Shown: piece after piece, positions 1,091 through 53,879 of the stretch
Layout: the number at the start of each line of letters is the position of its first letter
Numbering within the stretch: the stretch's first letter is position 1
Origin: Psammoneis japonica
Lineage: Eukaryota
NCBI GenBank assembly: GCA_008632985.1
Contig: QPGO01000234.1
Span: 1-64,000 of the forward strand
Length of the DNA stretch: 64,000 nt
Reading direction: 5' to 3'
Translations under genes and position numbers: made by a program
The notes under the pieces: generated by a model
Database searches by the model: none
What the model saw: only the letters and a program-made list of their open reading frames with translations
What the model was told of the DNA's origin: nothing

Positions 1091-1099
1091 TCAGAGCTT

Positions 1100-26935: not shown

Positions 26936-28032
26936 ATGTCCCGTTTCATCAATCAAAGAAACAAGAACACGCCACAGATTAAATGTGACCGAGACGACAA
27001 CCCCATGAATACAATGCACACCACCTTTGACAAGGATGGCAATAGAACAAGTAAATCATTGGAACATTCTCCGAGCTTCCTCTCTTGCGTTTCTCTTCTC
27101 CAGAGCTGTCGCAATCCTTGGGGACAAATGCGATTCGGAAAAATGTTGGAGGACTTGGATGCACTCGCGGGGAATGTTACCTTTTGTCATGTAGAGGGGA
27201 ATCCGCTTGTTGTGATGGCGGCTGTTGATCGGATTAGGCTGAGGCGTCAGCCAGTGATTGGACAAGACCAACACTTGTCTGGGCGAGTCATGTGGGTGGG
27301 CAACAACAGTGCTGGCATGGAGATTCGCATGCAAGCGAAAACGTTAAAGGAGAGGAATGGCTGGAAGCCTGCTTTACTTTTGTGACGTTGGACCCTGAAA
27401 CCAAGAAACCGGTCACAATGCCTCTCCTCATTGCAACGACCCAAAAAGAACGAGCGGAGTTTGAATTGGGCGCACTCAAGGCCAAATCGAAAAAGCCCAC
27501 ACGCAAGGACAAGCTCAAGGTGGGAGAGCCATTGGCCGAGGCTGCATTGCGAACGGACCGTGGAGGCATGGTGTTTTGCATTTTTGTAGAAGCACAAACC
27601 CTTGGAATCGAGTTGGCTTTTGCCAATGCCTGCGTCTTTGGAGAAGCCAAGCCATGCTTTCTGCAGGTAGATGACATCAGCTTTGATGCACCCGTGGATG
27701 CTGGTGATTTGCTGGTTTTCAGCAGTCGTGTGCTGTGCACGAAACTGGAGGGAGGACATTTGGTAAACTGTTGCGACAACTTGAACAAAGAAGATGAAGA
27801 TGATGCAAAGCCCCACATGTCAAAAAACATGCCTCTGGTTGCCATTGAAGTGGAGGCATGGGTGACGGAACCCGAGAAGGCGAATGCTCGCGCATGCAAT
27901 CATTTTTACTTCACTGTTGCGCCCCCCGAAGGCACGCCATGTCGAAAGGTTCTACCAGGAAACATTGACGAAGCCAGAAGGCAGGCAACCCGAATGGCAG
28001 CCAACAAAGAACACGCCAGCTTGAGATCGTGA
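26936..28032 (+). pseudogene. Acyl-CoA thioesterase (ACOT9-like double hot-dog) pseudogene
   Basis: Motifs CRNPWGQMRFGKMLEDLDALAG, AAVDRI, ELAFANACVF, VDDISFDAPVDAGDLL. Frameshifted, with expected Tyr positions reading Cys. Confidence 0.8.
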
Positions 28033-28646
28033 GCACATCACGATGCGTGAAGCTGCACCATTTGTGAGTTTCCCAGGTGTTGCCAGTGCCGGATCAGATG
28101 AGATGCTGTGTCTGATCTGATCCTCCGCCTCTTCCGATCCTCGTTGATGTTGAGGGAGATCAGAGAAGTTTCGGGAGATGTGATGCAGGACGACGGATGG
28201 CGGCAAGACACAATCTTTCTAACCGTTGCGTGGAATCCAGTGCAAAACCTGCAAACGTGGCTGCACTGCCAGGTCTCCCCCACAAGTCAATGTTCCCGCC
28301 AAACCCAAAACAACCGTTTCGTTTGGGTTTCTCGCATGTTTCTCACAACTCGCACAAACGTCTCTCATCGTGACACCCAAACAAGAGTGTCAACGCTTTG
28401 TAAACAAGCCCACGCAACACAAAAACCCATTGCGGCATTCGATTGCAGCTGACGACAATCGATGCAATGAATGCAACGCCGTTAAAATCGTCGCGTTCGG
28501 CGGAGGATGCCTCCGATTCCTTCAAGATCAACAGCGATTTGAAAACAACTGGTGACGGCAAATCACAAAGTGAGTCGTCGGGAAAGGCTGCTGCGAGTTC
28601 GTGGGAAGCAGGAATGAAGCGAAAGGTCGAAGCCATGACAAAGAAT

Positions 28647-34217: not shown

Positions 34218-34613
34218 GACGCGTTCCAGACGCAGGTGGGAATCCGTGTGACATTGGGCCCGTGGACTTCTACGTGCGAGCTCCGTAGTAAAATTATTCG
34301 GTAATTAAAATGTCAATGATCGCCAACAGAAAATGAGGCAATTTTGCGAACGCACAAACTGGGCCTTGATTGAAGTACATCATTTTTTACTTAGCCGGTT
34401 ACATTCTTCAGACATTGAAGAATGTAACTGGCGCATTATTGTTTCTATAATTTCGTTATATAAAACGTCTGGGGCTTCGCAAAACAGCGAGTCTGGACAA
34501 TTTTTTTTAAATGTCACACGTAGAAATGTACGTGCGAAACATACGACGGATGACAAAAATTATTTGTGTCACACGTCAGTACTACGAGCTCCCACCTAGG
34601 GCTGGAACGCGTC
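34218..34613. mobile_element. MITE family B, copy 1 (396 bp, TpA-retaining, young)
   Basis: TIRs GACGCGTTCCAG..AGGTGGGA / TCCCACCT..CTGGAACGCGTC with 4-bp TSD GAAA. 25 TA dinucleotides counted by eye. Confidence 0.93.
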
Positions 34614-35639
34614 GAAAAGCATTTCGTGCCTCCACAATCATTTCACTTGTGGAGCATCCTTTAAAAAACTTCATTGTCTGGAGGAAGAAGCCCACAATTG
34701 GTTTGGCTTTTTCACTGTCGACGACTTTGAAGATGCCCAGCAATGCCTTCGATGGCATGACAGACTTTCCTTCACAAAGGTCGACGCACCAGAATTCCAA
34801 TCATCCAAAGGATGTGGTGTGATGCATTGTGAAGATCCATTGGGGCTGGGTGCATCGTGCTGGCGGGGCTCATTTGTGGCAACAAGATGCTTTGTTCGAA
34901 TGTGGCATCGCACTGCGCAGTTGGATGGGTGAAGTCACCCACATTTGTTGTGTCTCCCAAGATCGGGTTGGTGTCAACAGCATGTGATCCTTTGGCGCCA
35001 TGCAGAGAACCGGTTCTCACTGGGTTGCACACCATGAGTTGCCTTTGAATCTCTCAATGCCGAGGGAAGACGGCCAAGACTCAGAAGACGAGGACTGCCT
35101 CAGAGTTGTGCGAGGAGACTGAGGCACTTTTTGGACTCAAGTGTGAAGTCAGCATGAGGACTCTTTGTTGCTTTGTGTTCAGTGCCAATGATCTCCATCG
35201 CTTTTGTTGCCATGATGCATTCGAACAAGTCACAGCCACCGAGGGACAAGTCCCTGTCAATGACGAGTCAACGCCCGACGGCCCTCTGCGTTGGGCAATT
35301 ACGACAATCAAGGGTCCCAAAGATGGACCCATGTTCGGCATCCCGGACAAATTGTCTTTGTGAGATTGCACAGAACATGAACATGCGCAACTCTGTGCCC
35401 GCACCACAAGCAGGAACCGCCATCACGTCTGGTGGGTTTAGAGGCACTTCCTGTGGATCAAGATGGAAATTCTTTCTGCTGTCATTAATGTTGTGAAATA
35501 ACTGCTTGCACGTGTCAAAAACAATTTGTGCTTGCATCAGAGAGCAGAGATCATTGCGGCCACAGCTGCCACACACCATGCCGCAGCTGTCAAACAGCTG
35601 GCTTTAGAGCATGGCGTGCCAATTTGTCTGCTCTCTGCT

Positions 35640-36376: not shown

Positions 36377-36933
36377 TCTGGTTAGTTCTGCTTCCGGACC
36401 TAGTCAGGGTTCCACATTAATGTGATGGATATTGAGTTGCGAACGAAGCGATACGGATTAAACATCGTGGAACGACGGGTCGATGCTCATATTGTCTAAC
36501 ATTGTTGGTAAGGACGTCTTGTACAGTACATATTATACACGTTTGCATGTCGATCGAAATGGATTGAATTTAGAAAACAAAAGTTAAAAATAGTAATTGT
36601 CAGAACTACCGTATGATTACTCAAAGCGTCGTTGCACATCATCACGGAGTTGCGTACCAACAGTCCCAAGGGACACGCAGTAGACCTATCTTCGCCGGAA
36701 TCGTCCACAGTTAGCTCGTAATTTTGACACAGGCGGCGAGCTAAAACGCCTTCAACATCCTCGAAGTCCAGCATTTTAGCACAAAGATCGGGTGGCAAAA
36801 GCACAACCGACCACATCTGATTTTGCACGCGGCCTCTCGCCTCACGCACCCATCAGGCACGAGATAACAAAAACATCACCACCATGGCGTCCAAATCTTC
36901 TCTTCCTGTAGCAAAACATTACAGGATTGTGTA

Positions 36934-38301
36934 GTGGGTCCATCACCCGAAGAACGACTTGACGGTTCTCCCTCGTGGTGTCCTGTATTGTCGTCATGTT
37001 GCACCGAACCTCCCTTGAAAAAGGCAAAAGAAGCCTCTCCATCAGAATCATGCACCTTTCAACATGCGGTCGATACCTTCTTGACGTCTGGTTGCTGTGT
37101 AATTCCCAATGTCCTTCCCAAAGCATTTGTGAAAGATTGTTTGTCTAAAGCGCAATCGGATTGGAACTTGTTGGATGAAACATATAAGAGACGCAAAGAA
37201 ACAGTATCCAATAACAATCATCATGAGTATGCCGCCGTTCAACGCATGGATTTTGCCGAAGTGGTTGCCCGAGATGGACAACGAATTGATGTAAGGTTTC
37301 AGTTGGATCGATTTCCTTTTGTAACGCCTGGGTTGATTTACAATCCAATTGTCTTTCCGTTGGTACAAGCCTTGTTGCAATATGGAACAGACTATTCACA
37401 GCAACCACAACAGCAACAACAACCATCGGATCAATCGGCCATTCATCTATTGTATGCGGGTATCATGTGGGCCATGCCTGGGAATAAGGACAATAATAAG
37501 GAGGAGCCGAGTACACCCCAGAAATGGCATGCCGACGGAGATCACTTGTTTTCGCACGTCCATTTGCCACCTCATTGCATCAATGTGTTTTATCCTCTCA
37601 TCGATTTGAACAAAGACAATGGTCCCACGCAAGTTCAAGCGGGGACTCATCAATTGGGAAATTTTGCAGGACACGACCATCCTACCTTTGATTTACAAGT
37701 CAATGCCGGGGGTGTCTGTTTGTTTGATTATCGATTGAAGCATCGTGGTGGTGCAAACCTTTCAAAGACGCCTCGACCCATTTTGTACTTGGCGTATGCA
37801 AAATCCTTTTATCGGGATGTAGGAAACACTCGATCGTTGAAATCGATATTTTTAGACGACTCCACCATTGATTCACCCCCATGGGTGCCACGTCTCTTGC
37901 GAGGACAAGCCATGCCGCAAATGGGGCAAGGATTTGAACACTTCCAGAATGGACCAAACAAAGACTCCTCGTGCAACACTGTTGCGAATGTGAATTCACA
38001 ACCAGATTCGACACAAACGTTAGAGAACTCATCCAACACACCTAATGGTACTATCATCCCTTCCACCACTTCCAACGTTGGTGAACAATGGGTCCTCTTT
38101 CAAATGACAGTTGAATTGGGTCAAGGTGTGGCCGCACAAACCTTGCGTGTCCATCACGGAGACATTCCCATAGAAGTCGCCACCCAGTTTTGTATAGAAC
38201 ATGGAATTGATCCAGTGGCCATTCCCGCCTTGACGGATATGATTCAACAACAAATGGATGCGGCACTACGGACTGCCGCCCAGACAAAAGAGAGCGGATA
38301 G
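36934..38301 (+). CDS. PhyH-family Fe(II)/2-oxoglutarate dioxygenase
   Basis: Motifs QKWHADG, NVFYPLIDL...GPT...GTH, FDYRLKHRGGAN...RPILY. True start uncertain. Confidence 0.85.
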   Translation: MGPSPEERLDGSPSWCPVLSSCCTEPPLKKAKEASPSESCTFQHAVDTFLTSGCCVIPNVLPKAFVKDCLSKAQSDWNLLDETYKRRKETVSNNNHHEYAAVQRMDFAEVVARDGQRIDVRFQLDRFPFVTPGLIYNPIVFPLVQALLQYGTDYSQQPQQQQQPSDQSAIHLLYAGIMWAMPGNKDNNKEEPSTPQKWHADGDHLFSHVHLPPHCINVFYPLIDLNKDNGPTQVQAGTHQLGNFAGHDHPTFDLQVNAGGVCLFDYRLKHRGGANLSKTPRPILYLAYAKSFYRDVGNTRSLKSIFLDDSTIDSPPWVPRLLRGQAMPQMGQGFEHFQNGPNKDSSCNTVANVNSQPDSTQTLENSSNTPNGTIIPSTTSNVGEQWVLFQMTVELGQGVAAQTLRVHHGDIPIEVATQFCIEHGIDPVAIPALTDMIQQQMDAALRTAAQTKESG

Positions 38302-38414
38302 TGCAAGATTACCCTATAAGAGTGGGTTGGGCCTAATCATTTAATGTTTTACTGACAACCGGTAACCTTGCAGGGAACATGTTCTTACGTCATCACTCAC
38401 ACCGGTAGATCGAA

Positions 38415-39902
38415 TCACTTGGAACGCCGCTGCACACGAAGTTTCGTGCCAACCGACTTGAGAGTCACATAGTATATTTCTTCGCCAGGATCCTCCACTG
38501 TGAATTCGTAACTTCGACAGAGACGAGCCAGAATACCATACACCTCGGCTGTAGCCAATACTTGACCTTGACAACCTCTACGTCCAAGAGAAAAGGGCAT
38601 AAAGGCTTTCAATACAGCCTCGTCCGGGTCTTCCCACCGCGACGGCACAAACGAGTCGGGGTTTTCAAACACGTCACCATCTCGGTGCATCAAATAAAAG
38701 GGAAAATCGACCCAGCTCTTTGCCGGAATCACCATATCCGAGTCGGGGACGGAAATATCACGTTGGACTTGCCGCATACTACCCAAGGCAACCGTCGGAT
38801 GGAGTCGATGCGTTTCTCGAACGACGCGTTTCAACGCGGCAGACTGTCGAGCCGCATCGTCGGTTGGACACTGACAGAGCGCCTTGTAAAGTCGCGTCTG
38901 CTCTTCCAAATGACGCGCCAGTTCCAACAAGGCCCAGGTGATTGTGTAGGAAGACGTGTCGTATCCGCCAACAAAGTAAAGTACCATATCCGCGGCACGC
39001 TCTTCATCGTTGGCATACCCGTCGTCGTTTGCAATTAGGTACAGAATCGAATTGGGGTTGGGATTAGGACATTGTCGATGAGCATCAAGAATGTCCGCAA
39101 ACTTCTTCTTGAGCTCGCGAGCACATTTGTGTGCATATCGATTGCTGGCAAACATCCACGCCGTGAAAGGAAGTGCCCGAAGAAGGCTCTGCTTGCAGGT
39201 GTCGGAAAACTCAATGTAACAAGTTTTGACCAAATATGCCAGTCGATCTACTTCCTCGGGTGTAAATTGATAGTCAAAAGCCACGCGACCAATAATACGC
39301 ATTGTGAGTCGACTCATTTCTTTGTCTACAACAATCGCCTCGTTTGACGCAATCCCTACAGGTTCGAGATGAGTCTCGATCCATTCCGAAAGCAAGTTTT
39401 CAATGATTCCCGTCATTCTCTCGACGTTCTTACTGGCAAATGCCGGATTTGTGGACTTGCGGACGTGAGAAAACCGCGCTCCTTCCGAGCAAAAAAAGGT
39501 TGAGTTCGCCGCTGCTGCCGTCTGGTCAAACATTAGGTATGCAAGAGAGGGTTTCGTTGACTTTGGGTCTTCCAGCACCGAACGGGCCACGCGATAGTCC
39601 CACGCAACACAAAAGTTGATCCATGGGGGAACATCCTTTAGGTAGAAGGCCTTTCCAGACACTGTTTTGGCCGCCTCTCGCAGCAACATGGGCCCATGCG
39701 GACTGCCGAGAGCTCTTGATGAGAAATCCACCAATGGTGGAACTTTCTTGTCGATGCTTTGACTAGAACGCTGAAACCATGACTTCACCGTCCAGAGGCC
39801 CACCACGCCTGTGAATAACCAGACGTAAACGTCCGGAATGTCTCCCACTGCTGCTGTCATGGCCTTTTTTTGTGGTATCGTGTTGTCTGAAACTGGAGCC
39901 AT
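38415..39902 (-). CDS. Cytochrome P450
   Basis: N-terminal TM anchor, I-helix GGYDTS, ExxR (ETHR), FVPSRW and the heme motif FSLGRRGCQG. Confidence 0.95.
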   Translation of the reverse strand: MAPVSDNTIPQKKAMTAAVGDIPDVYVWLFTGVVGLWTVKSWFQRSSQSIDKKVPPLVDFSSRALGSPHGPMLLREAAKTVSGKAFYLKDVPPWINFCVAWDYRVARSVLEDPKSTKPSLAYLMFDQTAAAANSTFFCSEGARFSHVRKSTNPAFASKNVERMTGIIENLLSEWIETHLEPVGIASNEAIVVDKEMSRLTMRIIGRVAFDYQFTPEEVDRLAYLVKTCYIEFSDTCKQSLLRALPFTAWMFASNRYAHKCARELKKKFADILDAHRQCPNPNPNSILYLIANDDGYANDEERAADMVLYFVGGYDTSSYTITWALLELARHLEEQTRLYKALCQCPTDDAARQSAALKRVVRETHRLHPTVALGSMRQVQRDISVPDSDMVIPAKSWVDFPFYLMHRDGDVFENPDSFVPSRWEDPDEAVLKAFMPFSLGRRGCQGQVLATAEVYGILARLCRSYEFTVEDPGEEIYYVTLKSVGTKLRVQRRSK

Positions 39903-40058
39903 TGCGGTTGATCGGAACACGTCAGTTTGAAGTGAAGAAGAGGCAGGCGGCAGGCAGTGTGATTCCGAAAATCCAAGACTCCTTTTTCGTCGTGTCCCGC
40001 CACCCCTCTGCGAACGCGCGTACGTGCACCTCGCGCGAAAGGCACAAAAAAAATACAG

Positions 40059-40644
40059 CACCAGTAAAAAACCGAATTGAGTCCTTATGACTGAACTGAG
40101 TCCTTATCCGACCCATATGTTGAATCGATCGATAAAATGATGAAAAAACCAAGTAATCAAACTGTTTTTGTTGCTGTGATAATCTTCAATTGCTGCTGCT
40201 TCTGACCATGTGTTTGGATTTGGGTGTTTCAGTTTTCTCCGGCTGCCCGTTGCCGTCGAACATGGTCGTTTGTATTTTTTGAAGCGGAAACGAGATTCAA
40301 CAATTCTCATGTAATTTTTTTATCAAGACACGCACATCATATATCCTCACTGCTCCGTGCTGCTTGCTGATTTGGAGATGTGTTGAATTTCTTCTGGTGC
40401 TTGACACGCAGAAATGTGCAGGGGGGCCGAATTGAGTCATCACGCGAAAAAGGTGCAACTTTTGCAGCTAGATTAAGCTAATCCCAAGCCCATTTCACAA
40501 CCGACCATCATCAAAGAACTCGTTAAGAGATGATGAAAAGCTGGGGAAATGCAAAGAAATGGTCAGTTTTAGGCCAATGATGGGCAAAAAATGGCCATTC
40601 AACATGTGGCAAAAATGAGGACTCAATTCGTTTTTTCACTGGTG
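40059..40644. mobile_element. Non-autonomous TIR element (CAC termini, possible 5-bp TSD)
   Basis: Left CACCAGTAAAAAACCGAATTGAGTCCTTAT versus reverse complement of right CACCAGTGAAAAAACGAATTGAGTCCTCAT. Flanks are TACAG and CGCAG. Confidence 0.75.
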
Positions 40645-41188
40645 CGCAGACTAGCTCGAAGCTAAAGGACTGAGGCGAGCGCGCGTAAATGTGAAGTGGT
40701 CAGTCCCGCCCACTCGTGACTCAGCACTTCCCCACGGTGAAAATTGCGCAGGAATCCGACGATGACAAAAACGGTCAGATGACTTCCGCTGACAACAATG
40801 TCAACTGCATGTGACTTGCATTCTGTGTTCGTGAATGCTTGGGTCAACCGCTTTGGGCATCACACACAGTTGTTTTGACGAGCTGGAAGTTGCCCGAACA
40901 AAAAACGAGTCGTGCGGAGCACCGCAGCTTTGTGCGCAATGCAGTGCTTGGCGTTGTTTTGGCAAAGTTCAGGGAAATGACTGCATGCAACACTTCAAGT
41001 GGTTAATTTGTGCATTGAGGGTGGTCGGCTGCTGCTTTTTTTGGCTTGAATTCGGCCAAACAGCTCGTGTTTTGCGCGATTTTTCCTGAATTTCACCGCA
41101 CTTCACCGTGGTGAAAACAGCAAGCCATGAGTCTGTGATGGAGGTGGCCCGTCTGACAACTCTCATTTGTTTTGTGTTTGTCATGTGT

Positions 41189-41976
41189 GATGCGTTCCAG
41201 GTCCAGGTGGGATCTCGCGCCACTGAACTGTGACATCAACAGTTTTTTGAATCGCGTCGCATGTCGCGCACGCACATTTCTACGTGATTTTGGCAAAATT
41301 TTGCATCATTTTACAGCACAATTGTCAGGCGATCCATTTGACAACTTTTAACATTTTTTCTCCTGCACCATTCTCGAGTGTCTTAAGAGTGGTGCAGGGC
41401 AGGCGCGCTGTCCAAAACTTCGAGCACGCACAGAGATGTGTGTGCTGCAAACTTGGCCGTTCATTTTGTGTCAAAGACAAACACATCCATTGACCAGAGC
41501 ACAAACTGCAGAGCTCGCACCCAGAATTCTGTGGGGCAAATGACGCGTTCCAGACGCAGGTGGGAATCCGTGTGACATTGGGCCCGTGGACTTCCACGTG
41601 CGAGCTCCGCAGCAAAATCACATGGCAATTAAAACGTCAATGATCGCCAACAGAAAATGAGGCAATTTTGCGAACGCACAAACTCGCACATGATTGAAGT
41701 GCATCATTTTTTACTTGGCCAGTTACATTCTTCAGACATTGAAGAGTGCAACTGGCGCATTGTTGTTTCTGTAAATTTGTCACATGAAACGTCTGGGGCT
41801 TCGCAAAACAGCGAGTCTGGACAATTTTTTTTAAATGTCACACATAGAAATCTATGAACGAAACATGCGACGAATGATGAAAATCATTGTTGTCACACGT
41901 CAGTGTTGCGAGCTCCCACCTGGGGCTGGAACGTGTCAAATGTCACAAAAAGTCCCGCCTGGGGCTGGAGCCCGTC
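41189..41976. mobile_element. MITE family A, copy 2, containing nested MITE B copy 2
   Basis: Colinear with 33249-33638 once 41542-41941 is removed. Flanks GTGT and GCAT read as a diverged 4-bp TSD. Confidence 0.88.
41542..41937. mobile_element. MITE family B, copy 2 (396 bp, hypermutated)
   Basis: Colinear with 34218-34613; 4-bp TSD AAAT. Confidence 0.93.
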
Positions 41977-42399
41977 GCATCAAAGATTGCGCGCACATGA
42001 AAAGTTGGCAGACGGCAAACTGCATTTGTGAGAAATGTCGACATTGCCATCATCGTCGTGCTTCGATCGCGGTGCATGATGTTCTTGTTTTCATGCGTGA
42101 TCGGGGGTGAATGCAAACAATTTTTGCGCTCAAAAACAAACACTGCAAATGTCTTCGTTCAAATGCCATGGTGACTCCAGGACAAACGCGGGGATGACCC
42201 CCCTTAAAGAACAATGAATGCACGTTGCATGCAGCAAAAATTGTCACTGGTGGAAGTCATCTGACCGTTTTAGTCATCTTCGGATTTCTGCGCAATTTTC
42301 ACTGTGGGAAAGTGCTGAGTCATGAGTGGGCGGGACTGACCACTTCCTGTGTCCGCGCGCTCAACACAGCCCTCACCTTCGGCATCTGGGGAAATTCTC

Positions 42400-42601
42400 A
42401 AGTCTCCAGCCAGCTGCTGGCTGAAGAAATTTGTGTAGAAATTGCACTGAAAGAGTCTGTCAATCTGTGCGTCAGGGGGTTTTGGTGAACGCTGGACAGA
42501 CTCGTCTTCTTTTGCGCATGTAAAAATTGTGCTGCACTTGCAAAACCGCCCAAACGCACTGACGAGCAGACTTTTTTCAGCCAGCAGCTGGCTGGAGACT
42601 T
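42400..42601. mobile_element. Small inverted-repeat element (about 200 bp)
   Basis: AAGTCTCCAGCCAGCTGCTGGCTGAA ... TTCAGCCAGCAGCTGGCTGGAGACTT. The interior resembles about 48750-48875 in inverted orientation. Confidence 0.65.
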
Positions 42602-42645
42602 CCCCCCATGTCTCCCCATTGCATCTGACACATTTCAAATGCACC

Positions 42646-44428
42646 ATGGCGTCGGCCGCAAGCATCAACGACCATGACAGTCCCACACAGCCTGCTCCGA
42701 AACGTCAGAGACTGACAGTGGAGTCAGATTTAAACTTGAAAGCACTCAGAGAGAACCTGGAGGTGAAACAGCGCGAGCTCGAAGATGCCTTGAACACGTG
42801 CAAAGAAAAGCTCGCTGCGCACCTGCATGCAAGCGACACCAGAAGAACTCATGTCGGCTGACACTCCCCCCGTCAAGTGTCTCAGTCAAAAGAGTGATGC
42901 TGAACAAAGTCTTTCTCGTGTCGGAAGAAAGTGGAATGACATTCAGACCCAAACTCTTTCCTTTTGCCGAAAAAAGCTTCTCAACGAGGGCCGTTGTTGC
43001 CACCGGTGTGAGGAGACACCCAACGGGGAGACAGCTTTGCTTGAGTGCGGCTGTTTTAATGTAGATGATCGTGACACAAGTGGCATCTGCGGACTTCGCT
43101 TGTGCACAAAATGCGCATCAGATTTGAAAGAATTCAAATCATCGGATCTGAAAGTCTGCGAAGTTTGCAAAACACTTTCTTGCCAGATCAACCCTGAAAC
43201 TGGAAGGCACAGTTCCGCCAAATGCGCAACTTGCTTGTGCAAGGTGGCAGAAAACAGCACCTGCTCGGAGCACATTGAAGGAAAAAGATCTTTGGAGAAA
43301 AAGCACGTGTGCAAGCCATGTGTCCGTGCATGCTCCGCCCCATTGCGCATTTTGACTGGGCATGTGTCGCCCGAGCCAGCACACAAAATGCAGCTGAGGA
43401 GTCAGAATGATGGCGGTTGCAGCAACACCATTTTCGGTGGTCACCTCAACAATGACATCCTGTTGATCATTCTTGACTGTTGTGGATCGAGAGAACTGAT
43501 GCGGTTTGCGCTGGCCAGTTTCGACAACTTCCATCTTGCCGAAAGTTACGCGAGTCGACTTTGTCAATGCTTGAATGGCAGCCCTGCCCCAAAAGAGTGT
43601 TGGACATCATCTTGTAGATGGATCAATCATCTTGAGTTTCAAGTGGCAGAAAGGTTTTGCTTTTTATCAATCGACGACTTTGAAGGCGCCCAGCGACACC
43701 TTCGGCGCTGCGACAACCTTTGCTTTACAAAGGTTCACCAGCCACATGACTGCGCATCAGTGGAACATAATCTGATTTTCATTGAGGAGGATTTTCTTGA
43801 GCCGGCAACGCTTGGGGCCATTTGCGGCAACAAGAGCCTTTGTTCCAATGTGGGATCGCATTTTGTCATTGGTCGTGTGCATTCATCGCAGTCTGTCGCT
43901 CCACTTTCGATCGGATTGGTTTCAACAGAATGTGATCCTTTGGCGCCATGTAACGAACCGGGTTCTTGCTGGGTTGCACACCATGAGTTGGATTTTAGCC
44001 GCTTTGTTCCGCCCATGGACGACGATGTCGACCAGGTTGATGCAATTTTCGGTGTCAAGTTTGAACCTGATGCGCGGATTCTCTCGCATTTTGATTTTTT
44101 TGCTGAAGATCTTGATGAATTTTTCCGCATTGATGGTGAGGACGAAAGGCCACTCAGTGGAGCCAGTGCGATGGAATGACAAGTCTGCATCAAAGAAGCT
44201 TCAATGCCTGCAGGTCCACTGCACTGAGCAATGACAATGGGCACAAACGAGGAACCTGCCGCTGAAAGCGAGTTTGAAATGCCGTCAGAGGTGTCGTTGC
44301 GCGATTGCACCGCAGCTGAATTTGACCAACTTTATGACCGCTCTTGCAGGCAGCACAAGAATCACGGCTTCGCATTGTGTCACAGGGTTGTTTGGCATTG
44401 CTTCCATCTGTTGACTTCATCTCATTAG
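42646..44428 (+). pseudogene. F-box-like gene family copy 2
   Basis: Frameshift near 42825 and internal TGA stops. F-box-like LNNDILLIILDCCGSRELMRFALAS; C-terminal SPRY-like pattern. Confidence 0.8.
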
Positions 44429-44699
44429 CCAAATGAGGGAAAGATGACGAGGCAGGTGCATCCAGCAGCCTGCCACCCCTCTGTTTGGTCAAAGATGGAG
44501 CGAAAAGCCTGATCGTTGCATTTTGAGCTCGCGAAGCGGCAAAGGAAGCTGCGAGTCATTTGTGTTTTCTTTCACAACAAGCCTGACCTTGTCATGGCCG
44601 CAAATCGGCTTGGAAGATCTCATCTTTCCTCGTCCCCGTGATTGGAGAAAATGGGTGCAGATTTGGCCCAAATGTGAATTGCTTCCATGAAACACATTG

Positions 44700-46350
44700 T
44701 GTGGCACCCATTGTGCAAGCTGTCAATTTTGCTCCACCCCTCGAAGAACTCAGACTTCTCCTTTAGATTTCTTCGTGCCTTTGGATTTCTTGGTGCACGA
44801 CTTCTTTCCTTTCTTTCCGAAACACAACGAATCGTCGCTGTTCTCCACACCAGATGACATGGCTGAAAACAAATCATGGTGAGTGCGGTGGCAGCATGCA
44901 TCTCGTTCATTGTGGACGTCACCGGATCCATGTCCTCCCAGCCGTCCATGCATTCGCGACCCCAGCTCGGTTCACTGTCGGTCGCGGCCGTGTAAACCGC
45001 CGTGTGGCCATGTGCATGTGGGAGCATTGGCATTTGGAAGAAACTCGCCAGAAAAACACTGATCGTGAATCACAAAGAGCCGTTGCACTGGACAGTCGGC
45101 GTTGTCAGCTTCAAGCTCAACTGGTGTGTAGATCTCACCGCCATCAGCAATCCCGTCACTGTCAAAGTCCCACAGGTTGAGACCACAGGTGTTCGTTCCA
45201 TGCATGGTGTGACGCGCAGATGAGTGGCACGTCCGTTTCAACATCAAGATGCTGACACAGCTCCCCCATCTTGGCACGAATCGTGTCTTGTTTGGTTGTG
45301 CCACTCGCAACGTCGTTTGTTGCAAAGTCATCATTGTCACCATCACCATTGTTGAGATAAAGTGGGTTGGACCCAACAGTGTGCAGGTGAAGATCAGGCT
45401 TGCCAGAAAGCCACAGCCCCAGATCTTGCTGCAGAGGCTCTTGAGGTTGGCGGCATGCCTTCTGAAAGTTGGCCCTGTCATTGATGTTGCCAGACATCAA
45501 AGCCAAATGAAGGCACTCCTTGTCTTTGGAAGTCCTCCTCCTTCTTTCCAGACAAACATCTGGAGGCTTGTGGGGAATGTCCGGACAGCTCAGCGGTGTG
45601 ACCTCTTTGCACGTGAAGCAGAGTTCACTTCCATGCCCTTGGCCTGCCCAGACGGTTGTTGAAGGAAAGTCTTTGCCAAACTCCTCAACATGGTTCACAC
45701 ACATCCACTCTGCCTCACACCCAAAGTTTGAAAATGGTGCAGGGTCAAGCATGACAACCCAGGTGAGCAGGCATGGCTGAAGCAAGTCACAAATCCCTTG
45801 GTCGTGGTCATGAGCCACAGCAGGAGTCTGCCCAGATGCTCTGTCTCCTGGCATGGCAAAGTCCGTCATTCAGATTGCCTCACTCTCAATGGCTTGGTCG
45901 CGCACCTTTCATTCAATGTGATCAACTGCATCCTCTGGAGCAAGATTTCAAACTCTTCAATGTCAGCCAATGCCGGGGGAAAGGCCGTGCTGGCAAGAAG
46001 AGCAAGTCTGCAAACCATTGGCTTGGAAAGAATCATGGGTCACAACAAAACTGGACCCAACACGTCACTTGAATTCTGGCTCAACATTGCAAAGCTGCTC
46101 AGATTGCTTCTCTTTGATCAGGAGCTGCAACAAGCAAAGATTGCAAGCATGAAAAAATCAACACCAAAGCAAATCTCATCATGGCACAGTGCACTGACCT
46201 TTCCATTGTTTGTGAGACAATCTTTGCAAGAATCAAGACAAAATGTGTGATGCTCATCATGCAATTCCTCCTCTGATGCACGTTTTTGAGTCTTGACAGA
46301 TGCAGATGGAGCCTTGAAATCTTCGGTGTTTGCTGCCATCCATGGCTCAA
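44700..46350 (-). pseudogene. Clan CD (C13/caspase-like) peptidase, copy a
   Basis: Frameshifted homolog of 51801-53381, with LFVIHDQCFSG and HTAVYTAA. Confidence 0.75.
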
Positions 46351-46799
46351 TTCATTTCATTCCCCAATTTCTGAGCGCACTTTCAATCATTGTGCCACAT
46401 GATGTGTTGGTGGCTTTGATTTCCATCTGCTTCTCTTTGTCATGTGCTCAACGTGATTTTCAGTCTCAATGCCGCACAACAGATGCTTTGTTTCCACAAC
46501 ACTTGTTGCAATCCATGGCTCAAATCATTTGAGTTCCTGGCACACTCATTGGAGACATCTGACCATGACTTTCATTTCTCCACAAGAACTGCCATCTCTC
46601 CCTCACTGTGAGACATGTTCAAAATGTCAATGGTTGCAAGATGCCATGCTTCGCCCCAAACAGATGAGTGGTTGATGGTTGCATCATTCATTGGTGATGA
46701 CAATTCCAACCCAAACTGGGAAAATGAGTGAGTGTGGGATTCCAGCCAGGAAAAAGTGAGCACGGGAGTCTGTCTGTGTCCCCCCCATCACCCCCCCCA

Positions 46800-48700
46800 A
46801 CTGTGCCAGCCATCTTGTCATCTGTGTGTGTGCTTCCTTGTGTGCAATCAATGCAACAGATGACTTGTGCACCTCTGCCACCAAAGATGATTCAAAACCA
46901 GTCCACCGTGACTGTCACCATCTGGGGCAGCAGTCTTTGCAGTGGGAGATTGAAGCTGGCAGTGGTTCGGTTTGCTCAGATGGTGGAGGCAAAGACACCA
47001 ATGAGTTGCTCATGTTGTTGATCACATGGCTCAATGCATTTGAGGAGTGGGTTGTTTCCAAGGTCAACCTTTCAAAGAAACCAGACAAACTGTCCCCAGC
47101 AGTGAGTTGCTTCTGGGAAGTGCCAGCCAGGGACTCCTTTGTGATGGGCTCTTTGAGCAGCCATGTCACAACTTGCAAGACAAACTCTGGCAGCAGCAGT
47201 GGGCACAATCAAAGCCCAGTCAGAACCTGCTGTGAAGGAATGAAATGATGAAACAATGTGATGAGTGGATGGAGGGGACAGTGTGTCCCTGGACAGCGGG
47301 GCTGCTGTGATGTTCTCCTTCTCCAAAAACCACTGGCTGTGCAGACAATGTCCCTCCTCCAAGGTGTCCATGGCCAGGGCTCTTGCAACATCAAGCTGTG
47401 TGACCATGTTGTTGTCCAAGTGGGGCTTGTGCATCTGCCCCATGACTGTTGTGCTGTTGCCCCACAGAAGGCAGCATGACTCTGCAGGGGGTTGACCACG
47501 ACACAGAGTGTCCATGACACAGGTGGTGCAGCATGCCACCAGGAACTCCAGGGTGTTGAGCACAGCACAACATCAGAGATGCGCAGGCAGCTCCCCAACT
47601 GCTGTGCCACACCTCAGGCAGTGCAGAAGCCCCCAAACCCATGTTTGCAGGCATCGGATCTGCAAATTTGATTTGGCAAGCAAAATGCCACAATGTTCTT
47701 CAGGCTGATCCCCCAACCACAAAATTGCCATCCCTGATGGCAGCCAGAGGCTCAGAAGCCTTGGGGATCATGCCCCAAATCCAAGATGGAGTTGTCTTGT
47801 CAAACTTGTTCCCAGATGATGTGTGGCCAGACACTCCACCATGTTCCTCTGCCAAGTTCTTGTGGGAGGTGAGAGACTGGCCAATTTGCAAAAAAGGAGC
47901 GGCCTCTGGTGCTGATGCTGTGCCAGATGGGGACATCATGGCGGTGCCTGCAGAGGCAGCATTGTTGCCAGAAATGGGGATGCCAGGTGGTGCGAGCCTT
48001 CCCATGGTTGCAGAGGAGCCGATGCCCAACTCTCAGCCCTGGAATGGGCGAGAGTGTCAAGTGCAGAACCTCTCATCTTGCTGGAAGAGCTGCCAACCAC
48101 GGGAAATGGACAACGGGACAAAAAACTGCACCAGTGGCAAGTTCTTGGTTGCTGCATCAAAGTTTTGAAAAAATCTCAGATGGCCAGCTTTGACGTGACA
48201 GCCCCAGCCAAAAATTGTGGGATGAGGATGATGATGCGGAGCAAGGTGCAGGCTTCAGCAGCATCCCAAGGTGCTGTCAGCAGCGCCTTTGCATCAGCTG
48301 GCGATGATCCTCCTGCTGATTGGAGTGCAGCAATCCAATCCAGAGCTGTCGTGGGTGAGTCATCAACATGCCAGAGACACAAGCTGGGTGGTGCAAGAGC
48401 CGGCATGGTGTGAGCACCATGGCCGCTCTCAGCGCCCAAATGGAGTTTTTTTGTTCGGGGTTGAGGGGGGCTTGAGGTTGACATGCAGCTGGTGGGTGAG
48501 CTTCACATTCCCCAGGGTGCCAGGGATGAGTCCCACCAACAAGTCTCTCAGCACCAACATCTCCGCATGGCACGCCTCGGCAGAGAGAGGTCGTTGTCGA
48601 AGAACGTGGCAAAGCCGCAACTCGCGTGTGCTTCGCACGAAAGGCACACACAAAATTCCAACCCTGCCCTCCATGACATTTGGGGGGCATGTCTGGACAG
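46800..48700 (-). mobile_element. DIRS/Ngaro-like tyrosine-recombinase retrotransposon relic (RNase H region)
   Basis: GISLKNIVAFCLPNQICRSDACKHGFGGF, LNTLEFL, LWGNSTTVMG, CLHSQWF...NITAAPLSRD follow the DIRS-type RNase H pattern (SDA..G.G, N.LE, DNT, N..AD.LSR). Limits approximate. Confidence 0.7.
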
Positions 48701-49015
48701 CTGCTGTTCGAACAAATTCTCTCTGTCTGTGCGTTTGGGGCACTTGTCAGTGCTGCAGGCAGAATTTCAACGCATGCACAGAAAAAGAGGCAGAGTCTGT
48801 CCTGCGTTCACCAAATTTTCCGAATGCCTCAACAGCAATGATGATTGACAGACTGTTCCAATGCAAATTCCATCCACGCAAGATTGTTCGAACAGCCGCC
48901 TCCGTCGGTCCAGACACGTCCCCCAATAAATGCGGTAACCCCCAAGTTGTCTCTGCCAAAAAGCGGCGCTCTCCATCTGCACCTCGCGCTGCGCGCTGCA
49001 CCTGCACTGTTCTAA

Positions 49016-49745
49016 GACTCTGTCCAAACACTGTCATACCGTAGGTATGATCATACCCACGTCACGCAGGCTTTTATGATGACGTCATAGGTCATACCCG
49101 TAATGTTCTGTCCAAACACATTCGTACGTACGATAGTACCTCATAGACATTAATCGAATGATTCAAACTTACAGTACGCGAAGCAACACCAGATACAACA
49201 TGAATGAACCAGCGACAACAACACGACGAGAACGACATGACCATGACGACGAGAACGCAACCATAAGGCGACAATAAGCCATACAAAGGACACCCATTGA
49301 TGAAAAAATCATGCTTATGTATAACTTATGGCTAAATCAGTTGTCTGTAAGAGTGTATGACATGAATTTATTTTAAGAAACTGTTTGGCAAAATGGTTGT
49401 GTCAGAAGAGTCCAGAATGGCACACAAAGCCCCCCAAAGACAACAAAAAGCTCATGCATGGTCTTAAGAGGTTGCCTCATATAACACACAGCCACATGCG
49501 CTTTGGCCGTATCAAAAAACGATGCATATCGGTTGTTTTCGTGTTTCGTCGGTGGGGTATGATGTTTGGGTATGATGTTTCCGAGGAAGTCTGTTCTCGC
49601 GAGAACAAACATCCTCATGAAAGTTGGTATGGCCTAAAATTACGTCATGCATAGGGCTAATAACCACTAAATTTTTCGAAGAGGCTCATTTTAGGCGCTA
49701 TGACGTCAGGTATGATCATACGCATGACAGTGTTTGGACAGGGTC
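49016..49745. mobile_element. PIF/Harbinger (Tourist-like) MITE, 730 bp, TpA-retaining
   Basis: TIR GACTCTGTCCAAACACTGTCAT / ATGACAGTGTTTGGACAGGGTC with TAA TSD on both sides. Subterminal GGTATGATCATAC palindromes. Confidence 0.9.
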
Positions 49746-49794
49746 TAATAAAAATACATCGCACAACGCTGCAATCTGAAATTTGCACTACACC

Positions 49795-51651
49795 ATGGCG
49801 TCGTCCGCAAGATACAACGACCATGACGGTCCCACACAGCCTGATCCGAAATGTCAGCGACTGACAGTGGAGTCAGATTTAAACTTGAAATCGTTGAGAG
49901 AGAACCTGGAGGTGAAACAGCGCGAGCTCGAAGATGCCTTGAACACGTGCAAAGAAAAGCTCGCTGCGCACATGCAAGCGACACCAGAAGAACTCACATC
50001 AGCTGACACTCCCCCCGTCAAGCATCGCAGTCGAAAGAATGATGATGAACAAAGTCTTTCCCGCATCGGAAGAATGTGGAATGACACTCGGACCCAAACT
50101 CTTTCCCATTGCCGAAAAAAGCTTCTCAACGAGGGCCGTTGTTGTCATCGGTGTGAGGAGACATCCAACGGGGAGATGGCTTCATTCGAGTGCGGCTGTT
50201 TTAATGTGGATGATCGAGATGCAAATGGCATCTGCGGAGTTCGCTTGTGCACAAAATGCGCAACAGATTTGAAAGAATTCAAATGGTCGGATCTGAAAGT
50301 CTGCGAAGTTTGCAAAACACTTTCTTGCCAGATCAACCCTGCAACTGCTGAGTTCAATTTCACCAAATGCGTAACTTGCTTTTGCGATGTGGCAGAAAAT
50401 CGAACTCACTTGGAGCAACATGAAGGAAAAGGATTTTTGGAGAAAAAGCATGTGTGCGAGCCATGTGTCTGGGCATGCTCCGCTGCTGCATGCCGCTGCA
50501 CCAGTGCAACTTGCCTTGTGTCGCCCGGGGTAGTGCCAAAAAAGCAGCTGAGGAGTCAGAATGATGGCGGTTGCAGCAACACTGTTTTCGGTGGTCACCT
50601 CAACAATGATGTCCTGTCGACTGTTCTTGACTGTTGTGGATCGAGAGAACTGATGCGGTTTGCGCTGGCCAGTTTCGACAACTTCCATCTTGCCGAAAGT
50701 TACGCGAGTCGACTTTGTCAACTCTTGAATGGCAGCCCTGCCCCCAAAAAGTGTTGGTCATTACATTGTAGATTGATCTATCGTCTCGAGGTTGGAGCAG
50801 CAACAAGACTTGGCTTTTTGTCAGCCGACGACTTTGAAGGCGCACAGCGACACCTTCGGCGCCGCGACAACCTTTGCTTTACAAAGGTTCACGGTCCATG
50901 TGACTTCGCATTGGTGAAACATTGCCGGCACAGGATTGAAATTGAGGACAATTTATTTGAGCCGGCAAAGCTTGGGGCCATTTGCGGCAACAAGATCCTT
51001 TGCTCCAATGTGGGATCGCATTGTGTCATTGGTCGTGTGCTCTCATCGCGGTCTGTCGCTCCACTTTCGATCGGATTGGTTTCAACAGAATGTGACCCTT
51101 TGGCGCCATGTAACGAACTGGGTTCTTGCTGGGTTGCACACCATGAGTTGGATTTAAGTCACTTTATTTGGTCCATGGGGCCAGACGATGTCGACCAGGT
51201 TGGTGCAATTTTCGGTGTCAAATTTGACCCTGGCTCGCGGACTCTGTCGTATTTTGACTTTTTTGCTGAAGATCTTGATGAATTTTTCCGCATGAATGGT
51301 GAGGACAGTGAGGATGAAAGGCTGCCCAGTGGAGCCAGTGCAATGGAACGACAAGTCTGCATCGAAGAAGCTTCAATGTCTGCCGGTCCACTGCACTGGG
51401 CAATGACAATGGGCACAAACGAAGAACCTGCCGATGGAAGCGAGTTCATTGAAATGCCGTCAAGGGTGTCGTTGCGCGATTGCACCGCAGCTGAATTTGA
51501 CCAGCTTTATGACCGTTCTTGCAGGCAGCACATGAATCATGGTCGCGTTTCATCTCACCAGGCAAATGAAGAAAAGATGACGATGCAGGTGCATCTGGCA
51601 ACCTGCAACCCTTCCGCGTGTCATTTGTGTTTTCTTCCATCACGAGCCTGA
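49795..51651 (+). pseudogene. F-box-like gene family copy 3 (open frame but hypermutated)
   Basis: Continuous ORF with coiled coil, CxxC clusters, F-box-like LNNDVLSTVLDCCGSRELMRFALAS and SPRY-like FGVKFDPGSRTLSYF...GPLHWAM. Very few Tyr. Confidence 0.7.
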
Positions 51652-51800
51652 CCTTGTCATGGCTGCAAATCAGCTTGGAAGGTTGTGCTCTCATCTGTCC
51701 TCGCCCCCATGATTGGAGAAAATGGATGCTGTGCAGACATGGCCCGAATGTGAATTACTCCATGAAACATGTTGTGTGCTCATTGTGCAAGCTGTCAATT

Positions 51801-53381
51801 TTACCACGCCCCTCGAAGAACTCGGACTTTTCCTTTGTATTTCTTCGAGCCTTTGGATTTCTTCGAGCCTTTGGATTTCTTGGCACACGACTTTTTCCCT
51901 TTCTTTCCTTTGCCGGTGGAACACGTCTCGCAGAAACACAACGAAACGTCGCCGTTCTCCACACCAGATGCCATGGCTGAGGACCCAATCATAGTGAGTG
52001 CGGCAGCAGCATGCATCTCATTCATTGTGGACGTCGCCGGATCCATGTCCTCCCACCCGTCCATGCACTCGCGACCCCAGCTCGGTTCACTGTCTGTCGC
52101 GGCCGTGCAAACCGCCGTGTGGCCATGTGTGGGAGCATTGGCGATTGGAAGAAATTTGCCAGAAAAACACTGATCGTGAATCACAAAGAGCCGACGCACC
52201 CGGCAGTCGGCAGTGTCAGCTTCAAGCTCGTCTGGTGTGTAGATCTCATCGTCATCAGCAATCCTGTCGCTGTTAAAGTCCCACAGGTTGAGGCCACTGT
52301 CGTTCGTTCCGTGGTTTGATGCACAGACAAGTGGCACATCCGTTTCAGCATCAAGAGACTGGCACAGCTCCCTGATCTTGGCACGAATCACATCTTTGTT
52401 TGTGCCACCCGCAACGTCGTTTCCAGCAAAGTCATCATCGTCACCATCGCCATTGTCGAGATCAAGTGGATCGGACCCATCGCTGCAGCAGGTGAAGATC
52501 TGGCTTGCTAGAAACCCACAGCCCCGGATCTTGCTGCAGACGCTCTTGAGGTTGGTGGCATGCCGCTGACAGTTTGCCCCGTCATTGACGCCGCCAGACA
52601 TCAACACTGCATGCAGGCACTCCTTGTCTTCGGCAGTCCTCCTCCTTCTTTCCAGATGACTGTCTGGAGGCTTGCAGGGAACGTCCGGACAGCCCAGGGG
52701 TGTGACCTCCTTGCACGAAAAGCCGCGCTCGCTTCCACGCCCTTGGTCTGCCCAGACGGCAGGAGGAAAGTCTTTGCCAAACTCCTCGACATGCTCATTC
52801 AGCATGTGGTTCACGTGTGTCCACTCTGCTTCATGCCCAAAGTTTGCAAGTGGTGTAGGATCAAGCATGGCAACCCATGTGTGCGGGCAGGGTAGAGACG
52901 AATCACAAATCCCTGGGTCATGGTCACGAGCCACGGCAGGAGTCTGCCCCGATGCTCCGTCTCCTGGTGCGGCAAAGTCCGTCATCCAGATTGTCTCGCT
53001 CTCAATGGTTCGGTCAAGCACCTTTCATTCAATGCAATCCGCCACATCCTCTGGGGTGATTTCAAATTCAATGTCAGCCAATGCCGGGAAAAATGCCACG
53101 CCGGCAAGAAGAACGAGGCTGCAAAAACCGTTGGCTTGGAAAGAATCATGGGTTGTCAAAGCTGCGTGGGCGCAATGTGTCAATGGTTTTCTGTCTTCGA
53201 CTTTCGACGTTACAAGTTGTTCAGGTTGCTGTTTTTCGAGCATCATTTGTGAGACAATCTTTTCAAGAATCCGGACAAATCCGCGACACTCGTGTGGCGA
53301 TGCACGTTTTTGAGTCTTGACAGCTCCGGATGAATTCCGCGATGCTTGTTGCCGTCCATGACTCAATTCATTTCTCACCAC
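51801..53381 (-). pseudogene. Clan CD (C13 legumain/caspase-like) cysteine peptidase, copy b
   Basis: LHAVLMSGG..NCQRH, putative catalytic SNHG and DQCFSG, and an upstream hydrophobic segment. In-frame TGA at 53027-53025. Confidence 0.78.
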
Positions 53382-53879
53382 GACAGACTTTCAATCGTTG
53401 AGCCATTTCCACAGATGGCTTTGATTCCCATTTACTTCTCTCGGTCACGTGCTGAATCTGATTTTCAGTCTCAACTGCGCTGTAAAAAAGATGATGATGC
53501 CCATTGCATTGCCATCCATGACTCCTCAAATCATTTTAGTGCCTGGAACACCAACTCGAGTTGTCTGATCATGATTTCTCCACACAATTGCGCCGTCTCT
53601 CCCTTGCTGCGAGACAAAAACGTTTGTGATTACAAGATGACACGCTTGGATAGTTTTGGTGACATGGGCCCCGCCCTCCGCATGATTTTCAGATTATTCG
53701 ATTATCGAACCGGGAAAGAGTGAGCGCGGGATGAACCGGGAAAAAGTGAGCGCGGGAAGTCCGTCCGTGTCTCCCCCGTCACCCGACCGCGCGGCGAACC
53801 CGAGACCCGAGCGCAGCGCGCGGTCGTCTTGGTCGCATACTGTATAAAGAGCCTGTGTAAAAAAAAAACGCCTGAGACA

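What the first reader, a model, noticed from the sequence alone, without database searches (positions are those of the whole stretch)
40054..40649. The mutation boundary runs through a single element, suggesting positional rather than homology-based targeting
The left TIR next to the P450 promoter keeps both TAs (CACCAGTA...CCTTAT), while the right TIR has lost both (CACCAGTG...CCTCAT). The flanks TACAG and CGCAG fit a 5-bp TSD with TA->CG. TA density falls at about 40345, inside the element. Inference: mutagenesis follows a chromatin domain that stops near active promoters.
Basis: partly seen in the sequence, partly recalled or inferred. Interest (0 to 1): 0.7.

Follow-up and report, generated by a model that had tools for sequence, protein, structure and literature searches.

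The report
Mutation domain edge inside a transposon
A small jumping element beside a diatom gene has lost its TA steps to CA or TG only on the half that faces a block of dead mobile DNA, and sister elements show the same one-sidedness, so this DNA-rewriting process goes mainly by place on the chromosome and not simply by being repeated.

Summary
The asymmetry is real; two details are wrong. The element is a 582-bp TA-flanked MITE (40061-40642) with 14 full-length copies. Against an unmutated sister, 13 of 30 TA sites became CA/TG: 2 of 14 in the left half, 11 of 16 in the right (p=0.004). The edge lies at 40343-40379, about 450 bp upstream of a P450 start codon. The flanks are not a 5-bp TSD: the duplication is TA, and its promoter-side copy is itself mutated.

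In four families, the end facing TA-normal DNA was less mutated in 10 of 12 one-sided copies. Two duplicated gene segments lost TA in one copy only (47 vs 3; 121 vs 2), and a third in neither. Position matters and homology is not sufficient. 'Stops at active promoters' is unproven: blocks end at 5' (9) and 3' (6) gene ends, there are no expression data, and many young copies inside blocks are unmutated.

The signature matches TpA hypermutation in Bigelowiella (one preprint); four searches found no diatom report. This scan has already noted the process and its positional edges on other DNA of this genome.

The parts
38415..39902 (-). Cytochrome P450 ORF, 495 aa, single copy at full length; its 5' end faces the MITE
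   Evidence: ORF; Pfam p450 E=8e-51; own-genome search (one 94% match covers residues 387-495 only); nearest Atlas cluster is a P450 with Bacillariophyta commonest
40059..40060 (+). Left target-site duplication, TA mutated to CA (isolated hit on the gene side)
   Evidence: alignment; a run contig matches 38646-40088 without difference
40061..40642 (.). Non-autonomous TIR element (MITE, family A), 582 bp, TA-flanked, 14 full-length copies
40061..40088 (+). Left TIR, both internal TA kept
40061..40343 (.). Spared part: 12 of 13 TA kept (only 40333 changed)
40343..40379 (.). Interval holding the edge of the mutated zone, 441-477 bp from the P450 ATG
   Evidence: best split
40379..40644 (.). Mutated part: 11 of 16 TA changed on both strands (10 of 10 non-YTAR, 1 of 6 YTAR)
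40615..40642 (-). Right TIR, both internal TA lost
40643..40644 (+). Right target-site duplication, TA mutated to TG
40666..42373 (.). Neighbouring decayed element with 170-bp inverted arms; first unit of the TA-poor block; holds a nested 396-bp MITE (41542-41937, 4-bp TSD)
40690..53630 (.). TA-poor block (1.7% of T followed by A at 41.0-48.5 kb vs 15.6% in the gene-rich 5-23 kb), interrupted at about 48.9-49.9 kb by a lightly mutated MITE
27076..28646 (+). Control in the window: duplicate of a thioesterase-like host gene segment; 47 TA lost here vs 3 in the parent locus
36873..38744 (.). Control in the window: 1.9-kb gene duplicate (93% to C116) with no TA bias (56 kept, 5 vs 5 lost)

Best explanation
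A TpA-specific mutator (A>G in 5'-TA, preferring TAY) works repeatedly on both strands inside silent, transposon-rich chromosomal domains of this diatom genome. The MITE landed at a TA between a P450 gene and such a block. The domain extended over its block-facing half and stopped at a stable edge about 450 bp upstream of the gene, so the edge runs through the element. Shown: direction, context, one-sidedness towards the block, and that homology is not sufficient. Inferred: that the domain is a chromatin state that spreads and is held back by neighbouring gene chromatin (about 0.7); that the barrier is specifically an active promoter (about 0.4); that the enzyme is an ADAT/TadA-type adenine deaminase (about 0.5).
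For: Window copy: 2 of 14 vs 11 of 16; five heavily mutated sisters lose the left half as readily as the right (51 of 56 vs 59 of 68), so the left half is not resistant in itself. Families A, B, E, F without the window copy, terminal 200 bp, likely inherited variants removed: flank difference vs mutation difference rho=-0.53, n=34, p=0.001; of 12 one-sided copies 10 agree, 1 disagrees, 1 ties; pooled 34 of 134 at the TA-normal end vs 73 of 137 at the TA-poor end; the other five settings gave rho -0.52 to -0.62. Of 74 copies, 19 of 22 with two TA-normal flanks have <=6% of sites changed, and 12 of 17 with two TA-poor flanks have >=67%. Duplicates: 47 vs 3, 121 vs 2 in a 5-kb, 96.5% duplicate on one contig, and 5 vs 5 with 56 kept in a gene-context duplicate. 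17 lightly mutated LTRs with a TA-poor flank carry more hits in their last 150 bp (27 of 168) than in the 600 bp before (37 of 923). Context: TAC 213/565, TAT 186/555, TAG 50/312, TAA 77/522; TadA-derived editors are most efficient at TAY (PMC10879117, passage). The hypermutated region in Bigelowiella is single-copy.
Against: The element's gene-proximal TSD is mutated. Position alone does not set the load: of 69 family C copies with both flanks TA-poor, 42 have <=5 of 31 sites changed and 23 have >=17; family C shows no flank correlation (rho -0.16, n=42). In the LTR family, edges fall near the LTR/internal junction in both directions, including LTRs spared beside TA-poor flanks. L043 has 28% of sites changed, spread evenly, with two TA-normal flanks; L012, L013, L225 and L015 (by its states) are mutated up to a TA-normal flank. 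4 MITE copies with two TA-poor flanks show no end excess (L211, L212, L213, L219), and L039 is nearly level at 3 of 27 vs 5 of 27. The flank measure is a product of the same process, so the correlation shows spatial continuity, not its cause. Some TA-normal flanks are young transposons, not genes. No chromatin, methylation or RNA data.
Confidence: 0.72

Rival explanations
1. One reading: the barrier is the active promoter itself (open or transcribed chromatin at the TSS), so loss depends on distance to an expressed TSS and not on other gene features.
For: Of one-sided copies with a long ORF on the TA-normal side, the 5' end faces the element in 13 (8 with Pfam support: L001, L004, L008, L042, L207, L233, L252, L258; 5 without: L007, L223, L228, L250, L256) and the 3' end in 2 (L015, mutated at 4 of 6 terminal sites; L041, uninformative). 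Some LTRs, which normally carry a promoter (general knowledge), are spared while their internal region is mutated.
Against: 15 HMM edges with a long ORF within 1.5 kb: 9 face 5' ends (median 771 bp, three within 40 bp of the first ATG) and 6 face 3' ends (median 495 bp). MITEs may simply prefer upstream regions. L206 is spared at its end without a recognised gene. Four LTRs are mutated while their internal region is spared. Expression of the P450 is unknown.
Confidence: 0.4
2. Homology-triggered targeting with leakage, as in fungal RIP: long repeats trigger the process, which runs some hundreds of bases into the flanks; short MITEs are below the trigger size and are hit only by leakage.
For: RIP leakage into single-copy DNA is reported (PMC9453070, passages). 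The block beside the MITE is made of high-copy repeats. The excess of hits at LTR ends beside blocks fits.
Against: Duplicates of 1.5, 1.9 and 5 kb do not show both partners mutated: 47 vs 3, 5 vs 5, 121 vs 2. 97-100% identical copies of 0.6-1.3 kb between genes are unmutated. Edges are steps from saturation to near zero in L001, L223 and L228. The Bigelowiella target is single-copy. Selection could hide hits in the functional partner's coding sites, though hardly at all sites.
Confidence: 0.13
3. Chimera: the right half came by gene conversion or recombination from an older mutated copy, or the donor was already half mutated.
For: L007 and L008 share two or three left-end changes that may be inherited; families C and E carry shared variants. 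Family C loads are bimodal (47 copies with 0-5, 4 with 7-9, 31 with 17-27 of 31).
Against: Both TSDs, which form at insertion, are mutated. Subfamily markers are of the L002 type in both halves, and no copy among 14 shares the pattern (L006 agrees in direction at 3 of 6 shared sites). Conversion would not orient towards the TA-poor flank in 10 of 12 copies.
Confidence: 0.06
4. Selection: mutation covers the whole element, but TA loss near the promoter is purged.
For: The spared part lies 160-440 bp upstream of an ATG.
Against: It would need selection on about 12 separate TA sites of a young insertion, repeated in unrelated families next to unrelated genes.
Confidence: 0.05
5. Sequence context or chance makes the asymmetry.
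For: Context matters (TAY about twice TAR), and the locus was chosen because it looked asymmetric.
Against: Context works the other way: the left half has the more mutable sites (mean weight 0.59 vs 0.50). The pattern replicates in copies not chosen by eye.
Confidence: 0.02

Closest known systems
TpA hypermutation of integrated NCLDV and virophage DNA in Bigelowiella natans (Mettrop et al., bioRxiv 10.64898/2026.01.13.699255; read parts 1-3 of 5: abstract to conclusion; methods and supplements not seen)
   Same: TpA>TpG/CpA transitions, confined to regions, targets of mobile or foreign origin; the NCLDV region is single-copy; an ADAT2-type deaminase is proposed; activity in only some lines recalls the bimodal loads here.
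   Different: There: measured de novo in a rhizarian, two viral regions, TpA only 1.8-fold depleted in the NCLDV region. Here: inferred from copies in a diatom, near saturation over many transposon classes, with edges mapped inside single elements and a TAY preference. The parts read do not map edges or relate them to genes.
Repeat-induced point mutation (RIP) of ascomycetes and its leakage (PMC9453070, passages; the pairing mechanism is recalled, not read here)
   Same: Dinucleotide-specific transitions concentrated in repeats, compartmented genome, spill into neighbouring DNA.
   Different: RIP is C>T and creates TpA; this process destroys TpA. RIP is recalled to act on both paired duplicates; here one partner is hit or neither.
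CG methylation of transposons in diatoms by DNMT5 (PMC9998398, abstract and outline) and CpG decay
   Same: Marks transposon domains; CpG is also lost in the cores of the blocks (CG o/e 0.06-0.35 at 45.5-48.5 kb).
   Different: TA loss reaches further than CpG loss: at 40.5-42 kb TA o/e is 0.15-0.21 while CG o/e is 0.89-1.02. 5mC deamination cannot give TA>CA/TG.
Tc1/mariner-type MITEs (features recalled)
   Same: Short TIRs, TA duplication, no coding capacity; TA-flanked short insertions that look like excision footprints occur in family B copies.
   Different: No partner transposase was found, so the superfamily is not fixed.

Membership tests
Bigelowiella-type TpA hypermutation | Changes are TpA>TpG/CpA transitions | tested here: met
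   13 of 15 substitutions in the window copy; 2219 CA/TG vs 19 CG states over all copies
Bigelowiella-type TpA hypermutation | Confined to regions of mobile or foreign DNA, genes spared | tested here: met
   duplicated host genes inside blocks are also hit
Bigelowiella-type TpA hypermutation | Does not need a second copy | tested here: inconclusive
   homology not sufficient; the one host segment tested proved to be duplicated, so necessity is untested
Bigelowiella-type TpA hypermutation | De novo rate about 1000-fold raised, in a subset of lines | not testable with these tools
   needs mutation-accumulation lines
Bigelowiella-type TpA hypermutation | Same enzyme (ADAT2-like, itself only proposed) | tested here: inconclusive
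   9 PF00383 matches in the genome, not classified; the family is present in 12 of 14 control genomes, so presence shows nothing
Fungal RIP | C>T transitions that raise TpA | tested here: not met
   TpA is lost
Fungal RIP | Both members of a duplication are mutated | tested here: not met
   47 vs 3, 121 vs 2, 5 vs 5
Fungal RIP | Leakage into adjacent DNA | tested here: met
   excess at LTR ends beside blocks, 27 of 168 vs 37 of 923
Tc1/mariner-type MITE | TA target-site duplication | tested here: met
   TA or its CA/TG derivative on both sides in 13 of 14 copies (L007's right end is rearranged); one diverged empty site fits a 2-bp duplication
Tc1/mariner-type MITE | TIRs and no coding capacity | tested here: met
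   28-bp TIRs; no ORF of 120 aa or more in the element
Tc1/mariner-type MITE | Autonomous partner with DD[E/D] transposase sharing the TIRs | tested here: inconclusive
   20 ORFs in loci of partial or longer relatives gave no transposase family; 27 TIR matches, none followed to a transposase
   0 of 14 with 5 of 5; best 4 of 5 in L007

The most novel reading that the evidence does not exclude
Diatoms carry a chromatin-guided DNA adenine-editing defence that needs no sequence homology. It spreads from silent transposon blocks into new insertions in episodes, and is stopped by a barrier about 0.4-1 kb upstream of active genes, so each half-mutated element is a fossil footprint of a chromatin border.
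Probability: 0.35. Interest if true: 0.82.

Novelty: new variant of a known kind. Interest (0 to 1): 0.6.

Why it matters
How the TpA mutator picks its targets is left open in the only paper found on it. Half-mutated copies of young elements give an internal control for age and sequence, and say that place on the chromosome decides. They also give exact intervals (here 40343-40379) where a chromatin mark should change, which makes the targeting question testable with one ATAC, bisulfite or ChIP track. If right, a second SAR lineage has a genome defence that runs opposite to RIP in direction and in targeting logic, with a context like that of TadA-type editors.

Tried and rejected
5-bp TSD with TA>CG: rejected. 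Context as the cause: rejected. Chimera of two subfamilies: no support. A single-copy host gene mutated beside a block at 26.4-28.7 kb: it has a parent on C33 and a partial match on C116, so it became a duplicate test. An empty allele of the insertion on C116: the colinear stretch ends at the P450 3' part, so the site is absent. Leakage into the P450 coding 5' end: TA o/e 0.33 in the first 600 nt vs 0.63, but genes not facing blocks reach 0.34 vs 0.66 and 0.35 vs 0.51 (20 ORFs); not supported. Ends-first invasion in family C: hot sites and shared variants rather than a gradient; inconclusive. Family D's left flank turned out to be the element's own internal region, so only its right end was used in the flank tests. 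Expression: no RNA holder listed. Run contigs (2 DNA runs of one sample, possibly the window's own) match 38646-40088 without difference; no contig listed shows the window's right-half alleles or an empty site, and contigs drop rare variants, so this is no test. Rfam on four flanking loci: 0 matches. One TIR pattern was mistyped and gave 0 matches; corrected. The 15 weakest listed matches each of families D and F could not be fetched, so these two sets (25 of 40 each) lean to lightly mutated copies. Literature searches for a diatom report listed nothing relevant; the library lacks most subscription journals.

Full report
Setting. The window is eukaryotic and gene-dense. The P450 beside the finding has as nearest Atlas cluster a P450 whose commonest phylum is Bacillariophyta, so I treat the genome as a diatom; this is a lead, not an identification. 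The window alternates between DNA with TA o/e about 0.5-0.7 and blocks with 0-0.2. In 5.1-23 kb 15.6% of T are followed by A, in 41.0-48.5 kb 1.7%.

The element. A search of the own genome with 40040-40660 gave 51 matches; 30 loci were fetched and 14 are full length, the window copy included. The 16 partial ones were left out of the counts. The least changed copies begin and end with TA outside 28-bp TIRs. TA>CG makes up 19 of 2238 mutated states. A diverged homologue of L006's target lacks the element and has one dinucleotide where L006 has two. No transposase partner was found.

The asymmetry. Against L002, the window copy has 13 TA>CA/TG changes at 30 sites, one CG>CA, one other substitution and one inserted base. 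The left half has 2 of 14 and the right 11 of 16 (Fisher p=0.004). Strand-resolved rates from other partly mutated copies are TAC 213/565, TAT 186/555, TAG 50/312 and TAA 77/522; weighting by them lowers p to <=0.002, because the left half holds the more mutable sites. Five heavily mutated sisters lose 51 of 56 left and 59 of 68 right sites. All five TAs kept right of 40379 are in YTAR context (the term is taken from earlier scan notes). Without the six YTAR sites the copy reads 2 of 14 then 10 of 10, split between 40343 and 40379 (permutation p=0.0002). YTAR protection is moderate overall, 181 of 275 mutated vs 1311 of 1641 in heavily mutated copies, so I give both counts. Changes go both ways (CA and TG), which implies several rounds on both strands.

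Not a chimera. Subfamily markers are of the L002 type in both halves. No sister shares the pattern; L006, also mutated on the right, agrees in direction at 3 of 6 sites. Both TSDs are changed, which must have happened in place.

Replication. I scored more families found in the window or in fetched flanks: B (10 of 12 loci with >=80% cover), C (82 of 90 loci after coverage filters), D (25 of 40 matches), E (25 loci) and F (25 of 40). For A, B, E and F without the window copy, the difference in flank TA o/e (600 bp) predicts the difference in end mutation: rho=-0.53, n=34 copies with >=3 changes, p=0.001 (terminal 200 bp, shared variants removed). Of 12 one-sided copies 10 agree, 1 disagrees (L225) and 1 ties; pooled 34 of 134 vs 73 of 137. 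All six settings tried gave rho -0.52 to -0.62. Thresholds were set after seeing some of the data. Of 74 copies, 22 have two TA-normal flanks (19 with <=6% changed, highest 28%), 17 have two TA-poor flanks (12 with >=67%, 5 with <=20%) and 35 are mixed. L223 and L228 show steps as sharp as the window copy.

Results against a simple positional rule. Family C sits almost only in blocks and shows no correlation (rho=-0.16, n=42). Of 69 copies with two TA-poor flanks, 42 have <=5 of 31 sites changed and 23 have >=17, and no copy of the 82 has 10-16. Time or episodic activity therefore matters. Family D is a retrotransposon 3' end (RNase H hit; LTR assignment inferred from TG..CA ends). In 8 copies the internal part is largely mutated and most of the LTR spared, 7 of them beside TA-poor flanks; in 4 the LTR is mutated and the internal part spared; directions at shared sites agree in about 40-70% for the larger pairs, so hits are mostly independent. 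The search favoured intact LTRs. Edges inside elements are thus common and not always next to a gene. Still, 17 lightly mutated LTRs beside TA-poor flanks have 27 of 168 changed in the last 150 bp vs 37 of 923 before, and the 4 heavily mutated ones drop to 12 of 40 from 178 of 218 at their end.

Homology. A 1.5-kb duplicate of a thioesterase-like gene segment at 27076-28646 lost 47 TA that the C33 parent keeps, against 3 the other way. A 5-kb, 96.5% duplicate on C165 with a porin gene and the same MITE insertion shows 121 vs 2; the MITE end beside the intact gene is spared (L042) and the same end in the twin is not (L045). A 1.9-kb, 93% duplicate at 36873-38744 keeps 56 TA and loses 5 each way; it could be a diverged allele. 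Being repeated is therefore not sufficient. Whether it is necessary was not tested here; the Bigelowiella NCLDV region is single-copy. A gradient alone would not exclude homology, since RIP leaks into single-copy flanks.

Promoters. Among one-sided copies with a long ORF on the TA-normal side, 13 face a 5' end and 2 a 3' end; the one informative 3' case (L015) is not spared. Spared zones end roughly 0.4-1.0 kb from the first ATG (estimated by eye from those calls). A mechanical test on the window, 30 kb of C116 and 20 loci of 8-9 kb found 15 edges with an ORF of >=170 aa within 1.5 kb: 9 at 5' ends and 6 at 3' ends, distances overlapping, three at the first ATG itself. Introns and wrong starts blur these distances. 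No RNA run was listed. The promoter claim stays open.

Mechanism. Shown: direction, both strands, TAY preference, sharp positional edges, orientation towards blocks. Inferred: a silent chromatin domain recruits or exposes DNA to the mutator and is bounded by gene chromatin. TA loss extends beyond CpG loss, so the TA process is faster than 5mC decay or covers a wider domain. Diatom transposons are CG-methylated by DNMT5 (PMC9998398, abstract), a candidate mark. The TAY preference matches TadA-derived editors (PMC10879117, passage), and Mettrop et al. propose an ADAT2 homologue; 9 deaminase-family loci exist here but were not classified.

What is known. The signature is in print for Bigelowiella natans (supplements not seen, and they may bear on edges or context). 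Searches found no diatom report. Earlier notes of this scan describe the process, the TAY rule and positional edges on other DNA of this genome; they are not independent support. This report adds the corrected element anatomy, the multi-family paired test, and a test of the promoter claim that came out undecided.

Verdict. Real feature; positional targeting likely (0.72); promoter-specific barrier about 0.4; new variant of a recently described kind; interest 0.6.

Noticed in passing
window 41542-41937 and 81 sister copies (L069-L098, L125-L184): 396-bp MITE with 4-bp TSD, found almost only in TA-poor blocks; loads are bimodal (51 copies with 0-9, 31 with 17-27 of 31 sites, none between), which suggests bursts of mutation or two insertion waves.
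   Followed up: partly
L185-L209 (family D): In a retrotransposon 3' end the mutated zone switches near the LTR/internal junction, in both directions in different copies.
   Followed up: partly
window about 49015-49745: Family B MITE deep in the TA-poor block with only 8 of 54 sites differing from L040; a young insertion not yet rewritten.
   Followed up: yes
window 500-3000 and 45500-48500 vs 40500-42000: CpG is depleted only in the cores of blocks, while TA loss reaches the edges.
   Followed up: no
family B alignment, L039, L043, L044: Short insertions at TA sites that look like Tc1/mariner excision footprints (interpretation recalled).
   Followed up: no
G000:C116:218900-228700 vs window 26.5-38.7 kb: Colinear diverged copy of this region; its P450 covers residues 387-495 only and has a stop.
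   Followed up: partly
L112 vs L116 (G000:C165): 5-kb duplicate about 20 kb apart with a porin gene; one copy intact, the other has lost 121 TA.
   Followed up: yes
window 30588-31343: 42-bp tandem array inside a 656-aa open frame in the TA-poor block; no Pfam match.
   Followed up: no
window 42827-45869 and 49795-52985, partial third copy at 32433-34800: Repeated unit with long open frames of no Pfam family and one weak Peptidase_C13 hit; frames may be open because TAA/TAG were erased.
   Followed up: no
G000:C41:505477-506590 and C317:55748-56795: Duplicated pair of adjacent PF00383 deaminase domains; not classified.
   Followed up: no
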